Part shown: in pieces, positions 1 through 4,584 of the stretch
Numbering within the stretch: position 1 is the stretch's first letter
Layout: every line of letters begins with the position of its first letter
Virus record (IMG/VR): IMGVR_UViG_3300014804_000067
Strand: one strand, 5' to 3'
DNA length: 5,430 nucleotides
Source of the DNA: a virus
Taxonomy: Duplodnaviria; Heunggongvirae; Uroviricota; Caudoviricetes
Translations under genes and position numbers: made by a program
The notes under the pieces: model-generated
What the model saw: the letters and a program-made list of their open reading frames with translations, nothing else
Databases searched by the model: none
What the model was told of the DNA's origin: nothing

Positions 1-10
1 GGTGAGTGAT

Positions 11-139
11 ATGGATTTCGACACAATCATGGAAAAGGCTTACGAAGAATACTTCGAAGGTCTTGCCGAAGGCGAAGAAGCTCTCAGCTTCAACGAATTT
101 AAACAGGCGCTTTCCAGTTCGGCAAAATCTAACGGCTGA
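11..139 (+). CDS. Hypothetical small acidic protein (42 aa from ATG 11; may instead continue from upstream of the window)
   Basis: Open frame from position 2 to TGA 137..139; ATG at 11 preceded by GGTGA (1..5). Translation MDFDTIMEKAYEEYFEGLAEGEEALSFNEFKQALSSSAKSNG. Below the size cutoff of the ORF track. Not recognised. Confidence 0.3.
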   Translation: MDFDTIMEKAYEEYFEGLAEGEEALSFNEFKQALSSSAKSNG

Positions 140-168
140 TAAGCGAAACAGCACCGCGAGGAATCAGT

Positions 169-387
169 ATGCAGAAACGAGAACCCGTCATCATCGCGCC
201 AGACTATACCGATGATGAACTTTATGAGTGGATGCACCAGAAAATTAATGCAGCGTAGGATCTGAAATGGGCCAATGAAGCCAGGGCTAAGCAGGCTGAA
301 AATCTGTCCGCTCTGGAGCAGGATATCACTAATCTGGAAAAAGCAGCGGCATTAAGCATTGCCAGAATGATTACATACCCGCGTTAA
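169..387 (+). pseudogene. Small prophage ORF (72 codons) interrupted by an in-frame amber codon at 256..258; the 5' part alone would give a 29-aa product
   Basis: SD GAGGA at 158..162, 6 nt before ATG 169. Translation MQKREPVIIAPDYTDDELYEWMHQKINAA, then TAG, then the same frame stays open for 43 more protein-like codons (DLKWANEARAKQAENLSALEQDITNLEKAAALSIARMITYPR) to TAA 385..387. No alternative ORF covers 259..409. Confidence 0.4.
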
Positions 388-409
388 TAGCTAACCAACG
401 AGGCTAATA

Positions 410-811
410 ATGGAATTTAAAGATTTACCAGTACCATTCCAGGAAATGGCATCTAATGTGGTTCGCTCTCAACTGGCGACTCTTGACCTGAGTACTGTAG
501 AAAAGGAAACCATCGATACTATATCCGGTAACGTGCGTCGTGCCTTTATAGGTCTGTATGAAGAGAAGCGCCTATTCGGCGGACAGAATTCGACTGAAAA
601 CAAGAATCAAGCAAATGATGAGAAGCTGAAACACATTATCGCCTTACTTTTGGAAGACGCAAAACGTCTACAGCAACTGGAACCAAATGCAGGCACAGAG
701 GCCCGCATTTGGATTGCCATGAAATCACTCAAATGTGAAAGCAGTGATTATTTCAAAACAACAATTAAAACTACTCAACTTTCGGGAGAGCTACTGAAGA
801 AATTGCCATAA
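410..811 (+). CDS. Hypothetical protein, 133 aa
   Basis: ORF-track ORF; GAGG at 400..403, 6 nt before ATG 410; follows the previous ORF after a 22-nt spacer. Not recognised. Its last ~25 codons run into the AT-rich island and overlap the 3' end of the minus-strand ORF. Confidence 0.6.
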   Translation: MEFKDLPVPFQEMASNVVRSQLATLDLSTVEKETIDTISGNVRRAFIGLYEEKRLFGGQNSTENKNQANDEKLKHIIALLLEDAKRLQQLEPNAGTEARIWIAMKSLKCESSDYFKTTIKTTQLSGELLKKLP

Positions 812-965
812 GAGCACGGTCTTTCTCTTGTTCTGCAAGATGAGCATTAATACCTGGTATGGTTTTTTCAAATTTATCTATCTGTTGAATAACAACTTCG
901 CGGTATACGTTTGTATTTGTACCACCAAGCGCAGCCGTTAATGCAGAAAGCATATTTAGTATCAT
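771..965 (-). CDS. Hypothetical small protein, 64 aa (MILNMLSALTAALGGTNTNVYREVVIQQIDKFEKTIPGINAHLAEQEKDRALMAISSVALPKVE), stop-start coupled to the 27-codon ORF; alternatively the 3' part of a single frameshifted gene
   Basis: Minus-strand sequence reads cac-TGA-t-ATG: the upstream ORF stop (969..967) is followed after one nucleotide by ATG (965..963). No SD of its own. Same frame as ORF-track ORF 771..1055. Lies in the ~30% G+C island. Confidence 0.4.
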   Translation of the reverse strand: MILNMLSALTAALGGTNTNVYREVVIQQIDKFEKTIPGINAHLAEQEKDRALMAISSVALPKVE

Positions 966-966
966 A

Positions 967-1050
967 TCAGTGCGATATGAAAAGAATCCTGATAGCTTCA
1001 TCTTGTTTTTCAATAATAGATTGCAGGGCCTCAATTTGCTTTTTATCCAT
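967..1050 (-). CDS. Short upstream ORF, 27 aa (MDKKQIEALQSIIEKQDEAIRILFISH), with the strongest ribosome-binding site in the window
   Basis: On the minus strand AGGAGG (plus 1056..1061), spacer GTGAA, ATG (1050..1048); stops at TGA (969..967). The ORF track instead lists 771..1055 starting at a GTG that directly abuts the SD, which is an implausible spacing. Confidence 0.35.
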   Translation of the reverse strand: MDKKQIEALQSIIEKQDEAIRILFISH

Positions 1051-1055
1051 TTCAC

Positions 1056-1624
1056 CCTCCTGAGGGTTGGTAATTAAGGAGTTCTCCACGGGTCAGGTGG
1101 AGTGCGTGCGCCGGACACGGGTGAGCATCCGGCACTGACAGTTTACTGAAAAGGATATATCCCTGAAAAGTCAGGGCATAACACGAAAGCGCCCGGCGAA
1201 GTTAGTCTCTCTGTATAGGTCGTCATTAAATTTTCGTCGACCGCGCGCTTCCGGTTGTGGCACTCCGCGAAATGGCGCGGCGGTAAGTATGGCGGGGTTA
1301 TTCCTTCCCCGTTGAGGACACCGGGTTGTCAGGTTGACCATACGCTTAAGTGACAACCCCGCTGCAACGCCCTCTGTTATCAATTTTCTGGTGACGTTTG
1401 GCGGTATCAGTTTTACTCCGTGACTGCTCTGCCACCCTTTTTAAAGTGAATTTTGTGATGCGGTGAATGCGGCTATGCGCACGCGGAACAGTTAAAACCG
1501 TAAAGTGGTCTTTTACGGGGCGTAACGGGCATCCTTCTGTATTCCGGCGTTAATTGTTAACTGGTTAACGTCACCTGGAGGCACCAGGCACTGCATAACA
1601 AAATTCATTGTTGAGGACGCGATA
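1056..1624. other. ORF-free, GC-rich, hairpin-dense intergenic region; candidate structured RNA or regulatory region
   Basis: No credible ORF in six frames (only an Arg-rich TTG-start minus ORF). G+C about 60-67% in 60-nt samples against about 30% in the adjacent island. Perfect inverted repeats at 1110..1133 (6-bp stem), 1161..1176 (6-bp stem, 4-nt loop), 1323..1359 (9-bp stem, 19-nt loop), 1498..1518 (7-bp stem) and 1574..1588 (5-bp stem). Confidence 0.4.
1549..1568. promoter_or_regulatory. Three GTTAA(C) repeats at 7-8-nt spacing upstream of the 1625 gene; possible operator or protein-binding site
   Basis: cGTTAAttGTTAACtgGTTAACg: GTTAA at 1549..1553, 1556..1560 and 1564..1568; the last two are palindromic GTTAAC hexamers. 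No convincing sigma70 -35/-10 pair could be aligned to it. Confidence 0.25.
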
Positions 1625-1813
1625 ATGGAAACGTTATTACCAAACGTTAATACGTCTGAAGGTTGTTTTGAAATTGGTGTCACTATCAGTAACCCTGTAT
1701 TTACTGAAGATGCCATTAACAAGAGAAAACACGAACGGGAGTTATTAAATAAAATATGCATTCTTTCAATGCTGGCCCGTTTACGTCCGATACAAAAAGG
1801 ATGTGCACAATGA
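1625..1813 (+). CDS. Hypothetical small protein, 62 aa
   Basis: GAGGA at 1613..1617, 7 nt before ATG 1625. Its stop TGA (1811..1813) overlaps the ATG (1810..1812) of the next gene in an ATGA arrangement. Not recognised. Confidence 0.55.
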   Translation: METLLPNVNTSEGCFEIGVTISNPVFTEDAINKRKHERELLNKICILSMLARLRPIQKGCAQ

Positions 1814-2093: not shown

Positions 2094-4584
2094 ATGAGTA
2101 AAGTCTTTATTTGCGCCGCCATTCCGGACGAACAGGCAATAAAGGAAGAAGGTGCAGTCGCTGTAGCCACTGCCATTGAAGCCGGTGATGAACGTCGCGC
2201 CCGCGCAAAATTTCACTGGCAATTCCTGGAACATTATCCGGCTGCTCAGGACTGCGCTTATAAATTTCTTGTCTGCGAGGATAAACCCGGTATACCCCGC
2301 CCTGCCCTAGATTCCTGGGATGCTGAATATATGCAGGAAAACCGCTGGGATGAGGCGTCTGCTTCCTTTGTCCCGGTTGAGACTGAATCAGATCCGATGA
2401 ACGTCACTTTTGACAAGCTGGCCCCTGAAGTACAGAACNNNNNNNNNNGTACAGAACGCTGTCATGGTTAAGTTCGACACATGTGAAAACATCACCGTTG
2501 ATATGGTGATTAGCGCGCAGGAACTGTTGCAGGAAGACATGGCAACATTCGACGGACATATCGTTGAAGCGTTGATGAAAATGCCAGAAGTTAACGCCAT
2601 GTATCCGGAGCTTAAGCTGCATGCCATCGGGTGGGTTAAGCATAAATGTAAGCCTGGTGCCAAATGGCCCGAAATTCAGGCAGAGATGCGCATCTGGAAA
2701 AAACGTCGCGAAGGTGAACGCAAGGAAGCCGGAAAATACACGTCTGTTGTTGATCTCGCCCGCGCCAGAGCCAATCAACAGCACACTGAAAATTCAACAG
2801 GAAAAATCAGCCCGGTCATTGCTGCCATTCATCGCGAATACAAGCAGACATGGAAAACACTGGATGACGAACTGGCCTACGCTCTCTGGCCTGGTGATGT
2901 GGATGCCGGAAACATTGACGGCAGCATCCATCGCTGGGCAAAAAATGAAGTTATCGACAACGACCGCGAAGACTGGAAGCGTATCTCGGCATCAATGCGC
3001 AAACAGCCTGAAGCACTTGGCTATGACCGTCAGACTATTTTTGGCCTTGTCCGTGAACGTCCGATCGACATTCACAAAGATCCCGTGGCGCTGAACAAAT
3101 ACATCACTGAATACCTGACTACAAAGGGCGTGTTTGAAGATGAAGGAACAAATCAGAGCACAACTAATACTCTCCCGTCGCCAGTACCAGAAGCTGATGC
3201 AGTGGAAACGGCAATGCCGGACAACGAAAAAACCGAATGCAAAGTGGAAGTCGAACCATCTGTAGAGCGTGAGGGGCCGTTCTACTTCCTCTTCACCGAC
3301 AAGGATGGCGAAAAATACGGTCGCGCAAACAAACTTTCTGGTCTGGATAAGGCGCTGGCTGCCGGGGCAACTGAAATCACGAAAGAAGAATATTTTGCCC
3401 GCAAAAACGGCACATACACAGGTTCACAACAAAATACTGATGCATCTGACACGACCGCACAACCAGACCTGGTAAAAGTTACCGCTGACGAAGTAAACAA
3501 AATTATGCAGGCAGCCAGTATCAGCCAGCCTGACGCCGATAAGTTGCTTGCTGCCTCTCGCGGAGAATTTGTTGCAGGGATTAGCGACCCGAATGATCCG
3601 AAATGGGTAAAGGGGATTGAAACCCGCGATTCTGTAGACCAGAACCAGCAAGAATCGGAACAGAACGACCAGAAAGCGGAACAAAACAGCCCAAATGCGT
3701 TACAAAACGAGCCAGAAACGAAACAACCTGAACCAGTAGTGCAACAGGAACCGGAAAAGATCTGCACCGCCTGCGGTCAGACCGGCGGCGGCAACTGCCC
3801 TGATTGTGGCGCGGTGATGGGCGACGCAACATACCAGGAAACATTCGATGAAGAGTATCAGGTTGAAGTTCAGGAAGATGATCCGGAGGAAATGGAAGGC
3901 GCTGAACATCCACACAAGGAGAACACTGGCGGCAATCAGCATCACAATAGCGATAATGAAACTGGCGAGACGGCAGATCACCCAATTAAGGTGAACGGTC
4001 ATCACGAAATCACATCCACCAGCAGGACGTGTGACCATCTAATGATCGACCTTGAAACCATGGGAAAAAATCCTGATGCCCCGATCATCTCAATAGGTGC
4101 AATATTTTTCGATCCGCAAACCGGAGATATGGGACCGGAATTTAGTAAGACTATCGATCTGGAAACTGCTGGCGGGGTCATTGATCGGGACACCATTAAA
4201 TGGTGGCTTAAGCAATCACGCGAAGCGCAATCTGCCATTATGACCGATGAAATCCCGTTAGATGATGCACTGTTACAATTGCGGGAATTTATCGACGAAA
4301 ACTCCGGTGAATTTTTTGTTCAGGTTTGGGGAAATGGAGCCAACTTCGACAACACGATTTTGCGCCGTTCATACGAACGGCAGGGGATCCCCTGCCCGTG
4401 GCGTTACTACAACGATCGCGATGTACGCACAATCGTTGAGCTGGGGAAAGCCATAGACTTCGATGCCAGAACGGCTATTCCATTCGAAGGTGAGCGCCAT
4501 AATGCACTTGATGACGCCCGTTACCAGGCAAAATACGTTTCAGTTATCTGGCAAAAACTGATCCCGAGTCAGGCTGATTCTTAA
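2094..4584 (+). CDS. Large prophage exonuclease (~820 aa once the gap is resolved): N-terminal region recalled as exodeoxyribonuclease VIII/RecE-like, acidic Q/E/N/P-rich linker, C-x2-C-x7-C-x2-C zinc ribbon, C-terminal DEDDh 3'-5' exonuclease domain
   Basis: GAGG at 2080..2083, 10 nt before ATG 2094. The 2094 frame (ORF 2094..2471) and the 2410 frame (ORF 2410..4584) both encode VQN either side of the N run, and removing the 10 N plus one copy of the 9-mer joins them as ...DKLAPEVQNAVMVKFDTCENITV.... Cys codons at 3763, 3772, 3796, 3805. Exo motifs: DLETMG (D 4048, E 4054), WGNGANFDNT (D 4348), HNALDD (H 4498, D 4513). The TTG 'start' at 2410 is an artefact. Confidence 0.85.
2439..2448. other. 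Scaffold gap (10 N) flanked by a direct 9-bp duplication GTACAGAAC (2430..2438 and 2449..2457); probable unmerged contig overlap
   Basis: Read directly: gaaGTACAGAACnnnnnnnnnnGTACAGAACgct. It causes an apparent +1 frame change inside the exonuclease gene. Confidence 0.9.

What the first reader, a model, noticed from the sequence alone, without database searches (positions are those of the whole stretch)
1056..1624. 570-bp ORF-free, GC-rich, hairpin-dense region inside a phage operon: candidate structured non-coding RNA
Phage early operons are normally gene-dense, yet no credible ORF exists here on either strand. Composition jumps to about 60% G+C (40/60 in 1081..1140, 36/60 in 1261..1320) directly next to the ~30% island. 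At least five perfect inverted repeats are present (1110..1133, 1161..1176, 1323..1359, 1498..1518, 1574..1588). A long structured non-coding segment between an inversely oriented small-gene cassette and downstream small genes could be an sRNA, an RNA antitoxin, a cis-regulatory leader or a decayed gene.
Basis: seen in the sequence. Interest (0 to 1): 0.55.

Follow-up and report, generated by a model that had tools for sequence, protein, structure and literature searches.

The report
DicF small RNA and processing spacer
This gene-free stretch is the long-known spacer of the prophage dicB operon: it carries the 53-nt cell-division-inhibiting small RNA DicF, flanked by folded RNA segments from which RNase III and RNase E cut it out, so it is real but already explained.

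Summary
Window 1056-1624 has no conserved ORF, and all five listed hairpins exist. GC reaches 60-67% only in sub-windows (51.7% overall). The region is orthologous (about 93% identical) to the 567-nt ydfC-dicB spacer of E. coli K-12 prophage Qin. Rfam places DicF (RF00039) at 1386-1437 (70.1 bits, threshold 48). Pfam identifies DicB at 1625-1813.

Published K-12 work describes a 190-nt DicF precursor (5' end by RNase III), the 53-nt DicF (5' end by RNase E, 3' end at its own terminator) and a 72-nt form (3' end by RNase III on read-through RNA). Those lengths put the two RNase III cuts near 1248 and 1456. Each falls inside a long predicted helix (1177-1206/1225-1259 and 1445-1465/1589-1609).

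The DicF-to-dicB segment is a well-supported structured RNA: 18 of 35 pairs show compensatory changes. The same segment precedes kil/kilR, terB and other small genes in other phages. It scores below threshold for STnc100. K-12 Rac sRNA KilS occupies the DicF position. The decayed-gene and RNA-antitoxin readings are not supported.

Verdict: already known, low interest. This copy has a rare mismatch in the DicF terminator stem.

The parts
1056..1063 (-). Ribosome-binding region (AGGAGG on the minus strand) of the frameshifted phrog_18692 gene to the left. It is not part of the RNA element.
   Evidence: Read directly from the sequence. The 27-aa ORF starting at 1050 matches positions 1-23 of phrog_18692. 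Intact 92-aa homologues start with the same ATG.
1065..1176 (+). 5' leader of the spacer, equivalent to the ydfC 3' UTR in K-12, with small hairpins 1084-1102, 1110-1133 and 1161-1176. It is the least conserved, mosaic part. Function unknown.
   Evidence: Homology to K-12 starts at about 1065. In other loci the homology starts at 1056, about 1080, about 1105 or about 1160. Column identity is 0.66-0.85. Fold z = -1.3, not significant.
1177..1259 (+). Helix A: a long imperfect helix (1177-1206 paired with 1225-1259) with a variable apical loop (about 1207-1224). Inferred RNase III substrate that gives the 5' end of the 190-nt DicF precursor, with the cut near 1248-1253.
   Evidence: Pair probabilities are 0.82-0.97. 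On 24 variants 98.3% of cells are paired against 23-39% when partners are slid, with 3 double changes. z = -2.3. The 190-nt species with an RNase III-dependent 5' end is published (PMC10448788). The position is inferred by counting back from the DicF 3' end.
1262..1384 (+). Module B: body of the 190-nt precursor, a very conserved block with hairpins 1265-1280, 1291-1313 and 1323-1359. It ends at the RNase E site (1384/1385).
   Evidence: 94-100% column identity over 114 copies. It is found alone in the P1/P7 ban-operon leader (annotated 'dicF-like region' in P1) and in cdtI and Stx2c phages. Covariation is inconclusive and two registers are possible for the last hairpin.
1385..1441 (+). DicF sRNA (53 nt, 1385-1437) with its Rho-independent terminator: stem 1400-1411 paired with 1423-1436, then U-tract 1438-1442. 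It carries a C1402.A1434 mismatch.
   Evidence: Rfam RF00039 at 1386-1437, 70.1 bits against a gathering score of 48, E = 1.8e-14. Identical to K-12 dicF (b1574) except G to A at 1434. The A is present in 4/115 copies, and the hairpin is -12.4 against -15.9 kcal/mol.
1445..1609 (+). Module C: structured DicF-dicB leader. It has a closing helix (1445-1456/1598-1609 plus 1458-1465/1589-1596), inner hairpins 1469-1484, 1546-1555/1563-1572 and 1574-1578/1584-1588, and a variable segment (1496-1545) holding the 1498-1518 hairpin. Inferred RNase III substrate giving the 72-nt DicF 3' end near 1456.
   Evidence: Pair probabilities are about 1.0. z = -3.9, 0/300 shuffles. On 28 variants, 35 pairs are 96% paired against 30-42% slid, 18 pairs have compensatory changes against 6.9 +/- 1.8, and 0/500 shuffles reach the observed value on any measure. 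The 72-nt RNase III product is published (PMC9438474 and PMC5069750). Sub-threshold STnc100 match of 34.9 bits against a gathering score of 47. The 1498-1518 hairpin lies in an insertion present in about 9% of copies and absent from K-12.
1613..1617 (+). Shine-Dalgarno (GAGGA) of dicB, 7 nt before the ATG and just 3' of the closing helix.
   Evidence: Read directly from the sequence.
1625..1813 (+). dicB, the 62-aa cell-division inhibitor and the gene served by the spacer.
   Evidence: Pfam PF05358 DicB, E = 4.3e-38, full length 1-62/62. Annotated as dicB in the 99.6%-identical JE86-ST05 locus.

Best explanation
Window 1056-1624 is the intercistronic spacer of a dicBF-type (pL-like) operon of a Qin-like lambdoid prophage of E. 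coli. The + strand is transcribed as part of a polycistronic early RNA. Part of the transcription stops at the intrinsic terminator that forms the 3' half of DicF (1400-1441). RNase III then cuts the long helix at 1177-1259 to give a roughly 190-nt precursor. RNase E cuts at 1384/1385 to release the 53-nt Hfq-binding sRNA DicF, which represses ftsZ and other host mRNAs by base pairing. Polymerases that read through the terminator transcribe a second structured segment (1445-1609) and then dicB. RNase III cuts the 20-bp closing helix of that segment near 1456. This gives a 72-nt DicF form and, by inference, separates the dicB mRNA from the upstream RNA. Shown here: identity and orthology, the helices and their evolutionary support, and the absence of coding potential. 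Taken from K-12 experiments: the RNA species and the nucleases. Inferred here: the assignment of the two RNase III cuts to these two helices, and the effect on dicB expression.
For: DicF covariance model match at 1386-1437, 70.1 bits against a threshold of 48. DicB Pfam match, E = 4e-38, directly downstream. About 93% identity over 1065-1624 to the K-12 ydfC-dicB spacer, where dicF (b1574) is annotated at the aligned position. The spacer is present in 4717 of 5426 complete E. coli genomes, and phage Tritos annotates DicF in the same place. Published RNA species are 190 nt (5' end needs RNase III), 53 nt (5' end needs RNase E) and 72 nt (3' end by RNase III on full-length RNA), with no internal promoter found (PMC10448788; PMC9438474; PMC5069750). 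Counting these lengths from the DicF ends gives about 1248 and 1456. Both lie inside the two longest high-probability helices of the region. Helix A is 98.3% paired on 24 variants against 23-39% slid. Module C has 18 of 35 pairs with compensatory changes and 0/500 shuffles reaching the observed value, with z = -3.9. No conserved ORF is present and no Pfam family matches in six frames.
Against: There is no expression or end-mapping data for this strain. The exact RNase III cleavage nucleotides could not be recovered from the papers held: the coloured letter in Fig. S1 is lost and the numbering 813/814 is not defined in the text. The assignment to helices therefore rests on RNA lengths estimated from gels. 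This DicF copy has an uncompensated C.A mismatch in the terminator stem (4/115 copies carry the A, 2 of them compensated), so termination efficiency and sRNA stability may differ from K-12. The genes upstream differ from K-12: ydfB and ydfC are replaced by a 133-aa ORF and a frameshifted minus-strand gene. The repressor and promoter lie outside the window. Module B and the 1065-1176 leader have no demonstrated role.
Confidence: 0.95

Rival explanations
1. The spacer is a decayed or unrecognised protein-coding gene, for example the 59-aa phrog_8854 family on the + strand or the 70-aa minus-strand ORF.
For: Mechanical ORFs exist at 1171-1383 (minus, 70 aa) and 1255-1353 (plus, 32 aa). Two plus-strand frames match phrog_8854 (E = 4e-07 and 3e-19), and an in-frame upstream extension of dicB matches phrog_24763 (E = 7e-20). 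Several phage records annotate 'hypothetical protein' here.
Against: No Pfam match in any frame. The minus-strand ORF is intact in 3/115 distinct copies. The phrog_8854-type ORF varies from 13 to 76 aa and reaches 55 aa or more in only 20/115 copies. Two different frames feed the same C-terminus. Variable sites are 12/16/15 over codon positions 1/2/3, with no third-position excess. In this window the phrog_24763-type extension has no ATG, GTG or TTG start before the dicB ATG (sequence). MG1655 annotates no protein between ydfC and dicB.
Confidence: 0.02
2. The conserved blocks act mainly at the DNA level, as linker sequences at module boundaries that promote homologous recombination among lambdoid phages, and the hairpins are incidental.
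For: The region sits at mosaic junctions. Homology to relatives starts at four different left edges. Modules B and C occur separately in unrelated contexts such as the P1/P7 ban leader and upstream of kil, terB and Rha genes. Core blocks are 95-100% identical across otherwise different prophages.
Against: Compensatory base changes in module C (18 of 35 pairs, 0/500 shuffles), in the terminator stems at the DicF slot and in helix A show selection on RNA pairing, which a DNA-only role does not predict. RNAs from this region are documented in K-12. A recombination role may coexist with the RNA role but cannot be the main explanation.
Confidence: 0.05
3. DicF, or another RNA from the spacer, is an RNA antitoxin that neutralises the toxic dicB gene in cis or in trans.
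For: DicB is toxic when expressed, and the sRNA lies directly upstream of it. Prophage type I and type III toxin-antitoxin systems have this general layout (general knowledge). The same slot-plus-leader arrangement precedes other toxic small genes such as kil and 36-aa hydrophobic peptides.
Against: The best DicF:dicB-mRNA duplex (-28.6 kcal/mol) is no better than with shuffled DicF (mean -28.0, 41% of shuffles as good). The RNA is on the same strand as dicB, so it is not antisense. There are no tandem repeats of the type III kind. Published work shows DicF and DicB both inhibit division rather than oppose each other.
Confidence: 0.02
4. The left part of the region (about 1056-1176) serves the minus strand, as the promoter and 5' UTR of the phrog_18692 gene, rather than the dicBF RNA.
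For: The minus-strand gene starts at 1050 with its Shine-Dalgarno at 1056-1061, so its promoter must lie to the right, inside the finding. This part is the least conserved and thermodynamically unremarkable.
Against: No sigma-70-like promoter is found on the minus strand in 700-1900. The same sequence (1065-1176) follows ydfC in K-12, where no minus-strand gene is present, so it is not specific to that gene. The gene itself is frameshifted here.
Confidence: 0.1

Closest known systems
DicF sRNA (Rfam RF00039; dicF b1574) and the ydfC-dicB spacer of prophage Qin, E. coli K-12
   Same: Same position (directly upstream of dicB), same length class (569 against 567 nt) and about 93% identity over 1065-1624. 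DicF is identical apart from one base. Both long helices and module B are present.
   Different: G to A at 1434 creates a C.A mismatch in the terminator stem. The apical loop of helix A differs (1207-1235). A 13-nt insertion forms the 1498-1518 hairpin. Upstream genes differ: ydfB and ydfC are absent, and a 133-aa ORF and a frameshifted minus-strand gene take their place. The prophage still has apparently intact exonuclease, xis and int genes.
KilS sRNA (b4833) upstream of kilR in prophage Rac, E. coli K-12
   Same: Same cassette architecture: a helix-A-like stem, an sRNA ending in a GGCGG...CCGCC stem plus U-tract, an almost identical module C, then a small division-inhibitor gene. The KilS 5' end lies in the 3' arm of the helix-A equivalent.
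   Different: The seed sequence is unrelated to DicF. Module B is absent. The downstream gene is kilR, not dicB. KilS was reported as possibly having its own promoter (PMC8175672).
STnc100 (Rfam RF02076) / PasD prophage sRNAs
   Same: Module C aligns to the full-length STnc100 model in all Escherichia copies examined. It shares the closing helix (model positions 30-37 with 141-148) and the CACCNGGAGGCACCNGGCAC hairpin.
   Different: Scores are 33-37 bits, below the gathering score of 47. Bona fide STnc100 and PasD are reported near late-region genes such as Q, LpxR and lysis genes, not in the pL-type operon (bioRxiv 10.64898/2026.05.13.724894).
'dicF-like region' of the phage P1/P7 ban-operon leader
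   Same: It contains module B (77-82% identical over window 1265-1361), followed by an intrinsic terminator, just downstream of a repressor-controlled early promoter. P1 and P7 also carry a module C copy immediately upstream of tciA/terB.
   Different: There is no DicF sequence and no helix A. The terminator hairpin is unrelated (GCCCATC...GGGTGGGC). The downstream genes are tRNAs.
RNase III-processed early leaders of phage lambda (N leader, sib) and the HK022 put RNAs
   Same: By analogy only, from general knowledge: structured RNA in the pL operon that is cut by RNase III or that modifies terminator read-through. Module B has two stem-loops spanning about 70 nt upstream of a terminator, as put does (PMC9378689).
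   Different: There is no sequence similarity: HK022 is not among the 61 phage records matching module B. No functional evidence exists. Not tested structurally.

Membership tests
DicF sRNA (Rfam RF00039) | Covariance-model score at or above the curated gathering score | tested here: met
   70.1 bits against 48, E = 1.8e-14, model positions 1-52 of 52 at window 1386-1437 on the + strand.
DicF sRNA (Rfam RF00039) | 3' Rho-independent terminator: a G+C-rich stem followed by a U-tract | tested here: met
   Stem 1400-1406/1430-1436 plus 1408-1411/1423-1426, followed by UUUUU at 1438-1442. It is weakened by a C1402.A1434 mismatch, -12.4 against -15.9 kcal/mol for K-12.
DicF sRNA (Rfam RF00039) | 5' and central seed regions that pair with ftsZ, xylR, pykA and manX mRNAs | tested here: met
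   Window 1385-1433 is identical to K-12 DicF, whose pairing was shown experimentally (PMC5069750). The targets themselves are not in the window.
DicF sRNA (Rfam RF00039) | Generated from the dicBF polycistronic RNA by RNase E (5' end) and by termination or RNase III (3' end) | not testable with these tools
   This needs Northern blots or end-mapping in rne and rnc mutants. Only the conserved sequence context of the cleavage sites was checked.
dicBF operon of Qin-type lambdoid prophages | dicB directly downstream on the same strand | tested here: met
   Pfam DicB, E = 4.3e-38, at 1625-1813.
dicBF operon of Qin-type lambdoid prophages | Control by a DicA/CI-type repressor and a pL-like promoter upstream | not testable with these tools
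   The promoter and repressor lie outside the window. The closest relative, JE86-ST05, has a divergent regulator pair upstream, but it is not homologous to the window left of about 405.
STnc100 (Rfam RF02076) | Covariance-model score at or above the gathering score | tested here: not met
   34.9 bits against 47 in the window. Scores are 32.7-36.8 bits in five related Escherichia loci. Only L211 holds copies above threshold.
STnc100 (Rfam RF02076) | Genomic context of described members (late region, Fels-1-type neighbours) | tested here: not met
   Here the element lies between DicF and dicB in the early operon. Published contexts differ.
HK022 put-type cis-acting antiterminator RNA (considered for module B) | Sequence or structure relatedness to putL/putR, and terminator read-through dependent on the element | tested here: inconclusive
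   There is no sequence similarity: HK022 is absent from the 61 phage records hit. A two-hairpin layout upstream of a terminator is present. The structural comparison and functional test were not done.
Protein-coding gene (phrog_8854) | Reading frame and length conserved among homologues, with third-position bias of substitutions | tested here: not met
   ORF length ranges from 13 to 76 aa and reaches 55 aa or more in 20/115 copies. Variable sites are 12/16/15 by codon position.

The most novel reading that the evidence does not exclude
The most novel reading not excluded is that the spacer is one instance of a portable three-part cassette used by lambdoid and P1-type phages to express toxic small genes. 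The parts are (i) an RNase III helix, (ii) a 'slot' in which different sRNA seeds (DicF, KilS and at least six others) are mounted on one conserved terminator scaffold, and (iii) module C, a covarying RNase III-gated leader distantly related to STnc100/PasD. Module C would couple terminator read-through to expression of whatever toxic gene follows (dicB, kil, terB or membrane peptides), and it may itself be released as a stable RNA. Module B, shared with the P1 ban leader, might influence processing or read-through of the terminator that always follows it.
Probability: 0.3. Interest if true: 0.45.

Novelty: already known. Interest (0 to 1): 0.15.

Why it matters
For the scan, it matters as a calibration point. 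A tool-free reader flagged a real structured non-coding RNA locus from sequence alone, and it turns out to be DicF, one of the oldest known bacterial sRNAs. Biologically, nothing new is needed to explain the region. The modest added value is comparative. The DicF-dicB segment has strong covariation support as a structured RNA. It recurs upstream of unrelated toxic or division-inhibiting genes. DicF and KilS sit in the same slot of the same cassette. If followed up, that could help explain how prophages keep toxic early genes quiet yet inducible, and how new phage sRNAs arise by seed swapping on a fixed scaffold.

Tried and rejected
1. The genome-contig scan with a 17-base DicF pattern returned mostly chance hits in unrelated phyla.
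2. I looked for the exact RNase III cleavage nucleotide in PMC10448788, its supplement, and two global RNase III mapping papers. It could not be recovered, so the positions are inferred from RNA lengths.
3. Faubladier & Bouche 1994 and the P1 genome paper are not held in the library.
4. The HK022 put analogy for module B found no sequence similarity. The HK022 record is too sparsely annotated to locate put, and the paper text holds no put sequence. I dropped it as untested.
5. Covariation for module B does not discriminate between two alternative registers of the last hairpin (1323-1331/1351-1359 against 1332-1336/1354-1358), and neither is better than controls.
6. The decayed-gene and small-protein readings were rejected.
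7. The RNA-antitoxin reading was rejected.
8. The promoter and terminator scan found nothing above chance in 700-1900. The one terminator-like hit is the 1498-1518 hairpin read on the minus strand, against an expectation of 1.1.
9. The minus-strand fold z-score of -3.3 was not taken as evidence for an antisense RNA, because the complement of a structured RNA also folds.

Full report
**What is there.**
The window is one arm of a lambdoid prophage read on the + strand. From left to right it holds small ORFs, a 133-aa ORF (410-811, phrog_1363), a minus-strand gene (771-1050) and the finding (1056-1624). Then come dicB (1625-1813, Pfam DicB, E = 4e-38), a DUF1482/ydfD-like gene, a large Rv2179c-type exonuclease, an excisionase (DUF1233) and the start of an integrase. 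An Rfam scan of the whole window gives one match above threshold: DicF (RF00039) at 1386-1437 on the + strand, 70.1 bits against a gathering score of 48. It also gives a sub-threshold match to STnc100 at 1449-1602 (34.9 bits against 47).

**Check of the observation.**
All five inverted repeats are present as perfect stems at the stated coordinates, and the two GC counts are exact.
- The region as a whole is 51.7% GC, not 60%.
- Perfect stems of 6 bp or more number 5, against 1.8 +/- 1.3 in dinucleotide shuffles. Stems of 5 bp or more number 18, against 7.8 +/- 3.0.
- The whole-region fold has z = -2.0.
- By segment, only 1445-1609 (z = -3.9) and 1177-1259 (z = -2.3) are clearly better than shuffles. 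Coding controls give z between -1.0 and +0.9.
- Mechanical ORFs do exist in the region, but they are not conserved (see 'Non-coding status' below).
- The first six bases are the reverse complement of the ribosome-binding site of the minus-strand gene.

**Orthology.**
The 569 nt match 4717 of 5426 complete E. coli genomes, usually at 90-95% identity and often in several copies per genome. In MG1655 the aligned region is the 567-nt ydfC-dicB spacer of cryptic prophage Qin, with dicF (b1574) annotated inside it. The pairwise alignment is about 93% identical from window 1065 onward. Most RefSeq records annotate nothing here. Phage Tritos annotates DicF.

**What the literature already explains.**
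In K-12 the operon is transcribed from dicBp, which DicA represses.
- A 190-nt DicF species has a 5' end that depends on RNase III. The 53-nt DicF has a 5' end that depends on RNase E. No internal promoter was found, and both ydfABC-dicF and read-through ydfABC-dicF-dicB-ydfD transcripts are inferred (PMC10448788).
- The 3' end of the 53-nt form is made by Rho-independent termination. A 72-nt form arises from RNase III cleavage of the full-length RNA (PMC9438474; PMC5069750).
- DicF binds Hfq and represses ftsZ, xylR, pykA and manX.

**Mapping onto the window.**
DicF is 1385-1437.
- Counting 190 nt back from its 3' end gives about 1248-1253, in the 3' arm of the long imperfect helix 1177-1206/1225-1259 (pair probabilities 0.82-0.97).
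- Counting 72 nt forward from 1385 gives 1456. That is the one-base interruption of the 20-bp closing helix 1445-1456/1598-1609 plus 1458-1465/1589-1596 (probabilities about 1.0).
- Both are plausible RNase III substrates. The assignment is my inference from RNA lengths, because the exact nucleotides could not be recovered from the papers held.
- A cut on the 3' arm of the closing helix would leave dicB with a leader of about 25-30 nt that keeps its GAGGA ribosome-binding site (1613-1617). This is also inference.

**Evolutionary support for the structures.**
From about 300 loci (IMG/VR scans, phage and genome records) I extracted 114 distinct full-length copies. The core (1236-1500 and 1546-1600) is 95-100% conserved. 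The apical loop of helix A and the stretch 1496-1545 are variable. The left edge is mosaic.
- **Helix A (24 variants):** 98.3% of cells are paired against 23-39% when partners are slid. There are three double changes, all from one diverged sequence.
- **Module C (28 variants):** of 35 pairs, 96% are paired against 30-42% slid. Eighteen pairs have compensatory changes against 6.9 +/- 1.8 in shuffles, and 0/500 shuffles reach the observed value on any of the five measures. For example, the closing helix GUGAAUUUUGUGAUGCGGUG/CACUGCAUCACAAAAUUCAU is replaced by CAGACCUUGCAAUGCAGUG/CACUGCAUUGCAAGGUCUG in L217, L220 and L258.
- **Module B (1262-1384):** it is too conserved to test, and two alternative registers of its last hairpin score alike.

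**Non-coding status.**
- Pfam finds nothing in any of the six frames.
- The 70-aa minus-strand ORF is intact in 3/115 copies.
- PHROGs gives two small unknown-function families. The first is phrog_8854, which matches two different + frames. Its ORF ranges from 13 to 76 aa among copies and reaches 55 aa or more in only 20/115. Two frames converge on one C-terminus, and substitutions are 12/16/15 over the codon positions.
- The second is phrog_24763. It is an in-frame upstream extension of dicB that has no canonical start codon in this window.
- These behave as gene-caller artefacts on conserved non-coding DNA. DicF pairs with the dicB mRNA no better than shuffled DicF does.

**Wider context (beyond the finding).**
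The spacer is modular.
- Module B occurs alone, followed by an intrinsic terminator, in the P1/P7 ban-operon leader just after the C1-controlled promoter. P1 annotates it as a 'dicF-like region'. It also occurs in cdtI and Stx2c phages.
- Module C directly precedes kil/kilR in Stx, Rac and related phages, terB/tciA in P7 and P1, a Rha/Ash protein, and 36-aa hydrophobic peptides.
- The DicF position is a slot. At least eight unrelated 5' sequences are mounted on the same GGCGG...CCGCC stem plus U-tract, with compensatory changes between alleles.
- In K-12 Rac that slot holds the annotated sRNA KilS (b4833), followed by an almost identical module C and kilR. The KilS 5' end lies in the 3' arm of the helix-A equivalent. 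The paper that named KilS does not mention DicF.
- Module C matches the full-length STnc100 model in all Escherichia copies, but always below threshold. Bona fide STnc100 and PasD lie in late-region contexts. I therefore do not file module C as STnc100.

**Peculiarity of this copy.**
G1434A puts a C.A mismatch in the DicF terminator stem, and the Rfam alignment marks it. The A occurs in 4/115 copies. Two of those also carry T1402, which restores pairing. The predicted hairpin weakens from -15.9 to -12.4 kcal/mol. This could shift the balance from termination (DicF) toward read-through (dicB). That effect is untested.

**Verdict.**
The feature is already known: it is DicF with its processing spacer. 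The novel residue is comparative and speculative (the cassette view, and module C as an RNase III-gated leader). Interest is low.

Noticed in passing
window 771-1050 (minus strand); frameshift at 980-983: The 'inverse small-gene cassette' is one phrog_18692 gene (92 aa, unknown function) split into 27-aa and 76-aa ORFs by one extra A in a homopolymer run. Eight of 11 homologues in other loci are intact. It is either a pseudogene or a homopolymer sequencing error.
   Followed up: yes
window 1402 and 1434: This DicF copy has an uncompensated C.A mismatch in its terminator stem. The A at 1434 is in 4/115 distinct copies, and two of those are compensated by T1402. The predicted hairpin is -12.4 against -15.9 kcal/mol, which may favour read-through into dicB.
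   Followed up: partly
window 2439-2448 (N-run) and flanks 2430-2457: A run of ten Ns is flanked by a duplicated GTACAGAAC inside the exonuclease gene. The span 2094-4584 is 19 nt longer than the single 2472-nt exonuclease CDS of the near-identical JE86-ST05 locus. This is a scaffolding artefact that splits one gene into two ORFs.
   Followed up: partly
window 1445-1609; L293-L297, L076, L217, L220, L258: The structured DicF-dicB leader (module C) recurs immediately upstream of unrelated small toxic or division-related genes: kil/kilR, terB/tciA in P7 and P1, a Rha/Ash protein, and 36-aa hydrophobic peptides. It matches STnc100 only below threshold.
   Followed up: yes
L301 (NC_000913.3 1418229-1418502, Rac prophage) compared with window 1177-1624: K-12 sRNA KilS occupies the same slot as DicF in an otherwise homologous cassette upstream of kilR. 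Its annotated 5' end lies in the helix arm where the DicF precursor is cut by RNase III, so KilS may also be a processing product. The KilS paper does not mention DicF.
   Followed up: partly
window 1262-1384; L076 2498-2618 (P1), L297 89-212 (P7), L298 1509-1631 (cdtI): The conserved block upstream of DicF (module B) is also the leader of the P1/P7 ban operon and of cdtI and Stx2c early operons. In each of these records examined it is followed by an intrinsic terminator. Its function is unknown, and covariation is uninformative because it is so conserved.
   Followed up: partly
window 1157-1353 and 1526-1639 (+ strand): PHROG families phrog_8854 and phrog_24763 appear to be built from spurious ORF calls on this non-coding spacer. 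Several phage records annotate 'hypothetical proteins' over it.
   Followed up: yes
window 1-405: The left end of the window (small ORFs at 2-139 and 169-258, the latter followed in frame by another open stretch after a TAG) is not homologous to the otherwise 99.6%-identical JE86-ST05 prophage. That prophage has a DUF1391 (ydfA-like) gene there. There is a mosaic junction near 405.
   Followed up: partly
L294 (PP818812.1, 'Actinobacillus phage vB_Apl-pPE4') 1590-1760: This record carries an E. coli-type cassette (DicA-like repressor, module B, module C, kil) with a tandem duplication of the sRNA slot plus the first 25 nt of module C. The stated host looks surprising for such a sequence.
   Followed up: no
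L205, L212, L213, L216, L223, L231, L253 (IMG/VR contigs): The hairpin motif TCACCNGGAGGCACCNGGCAC occurs two or three times per contig in some phages, at spacings of about 250-480 nt or about 3 kb. Module-C/STnc100-like elements can therefore be present at several places in one phage genome.
   Followed up: no
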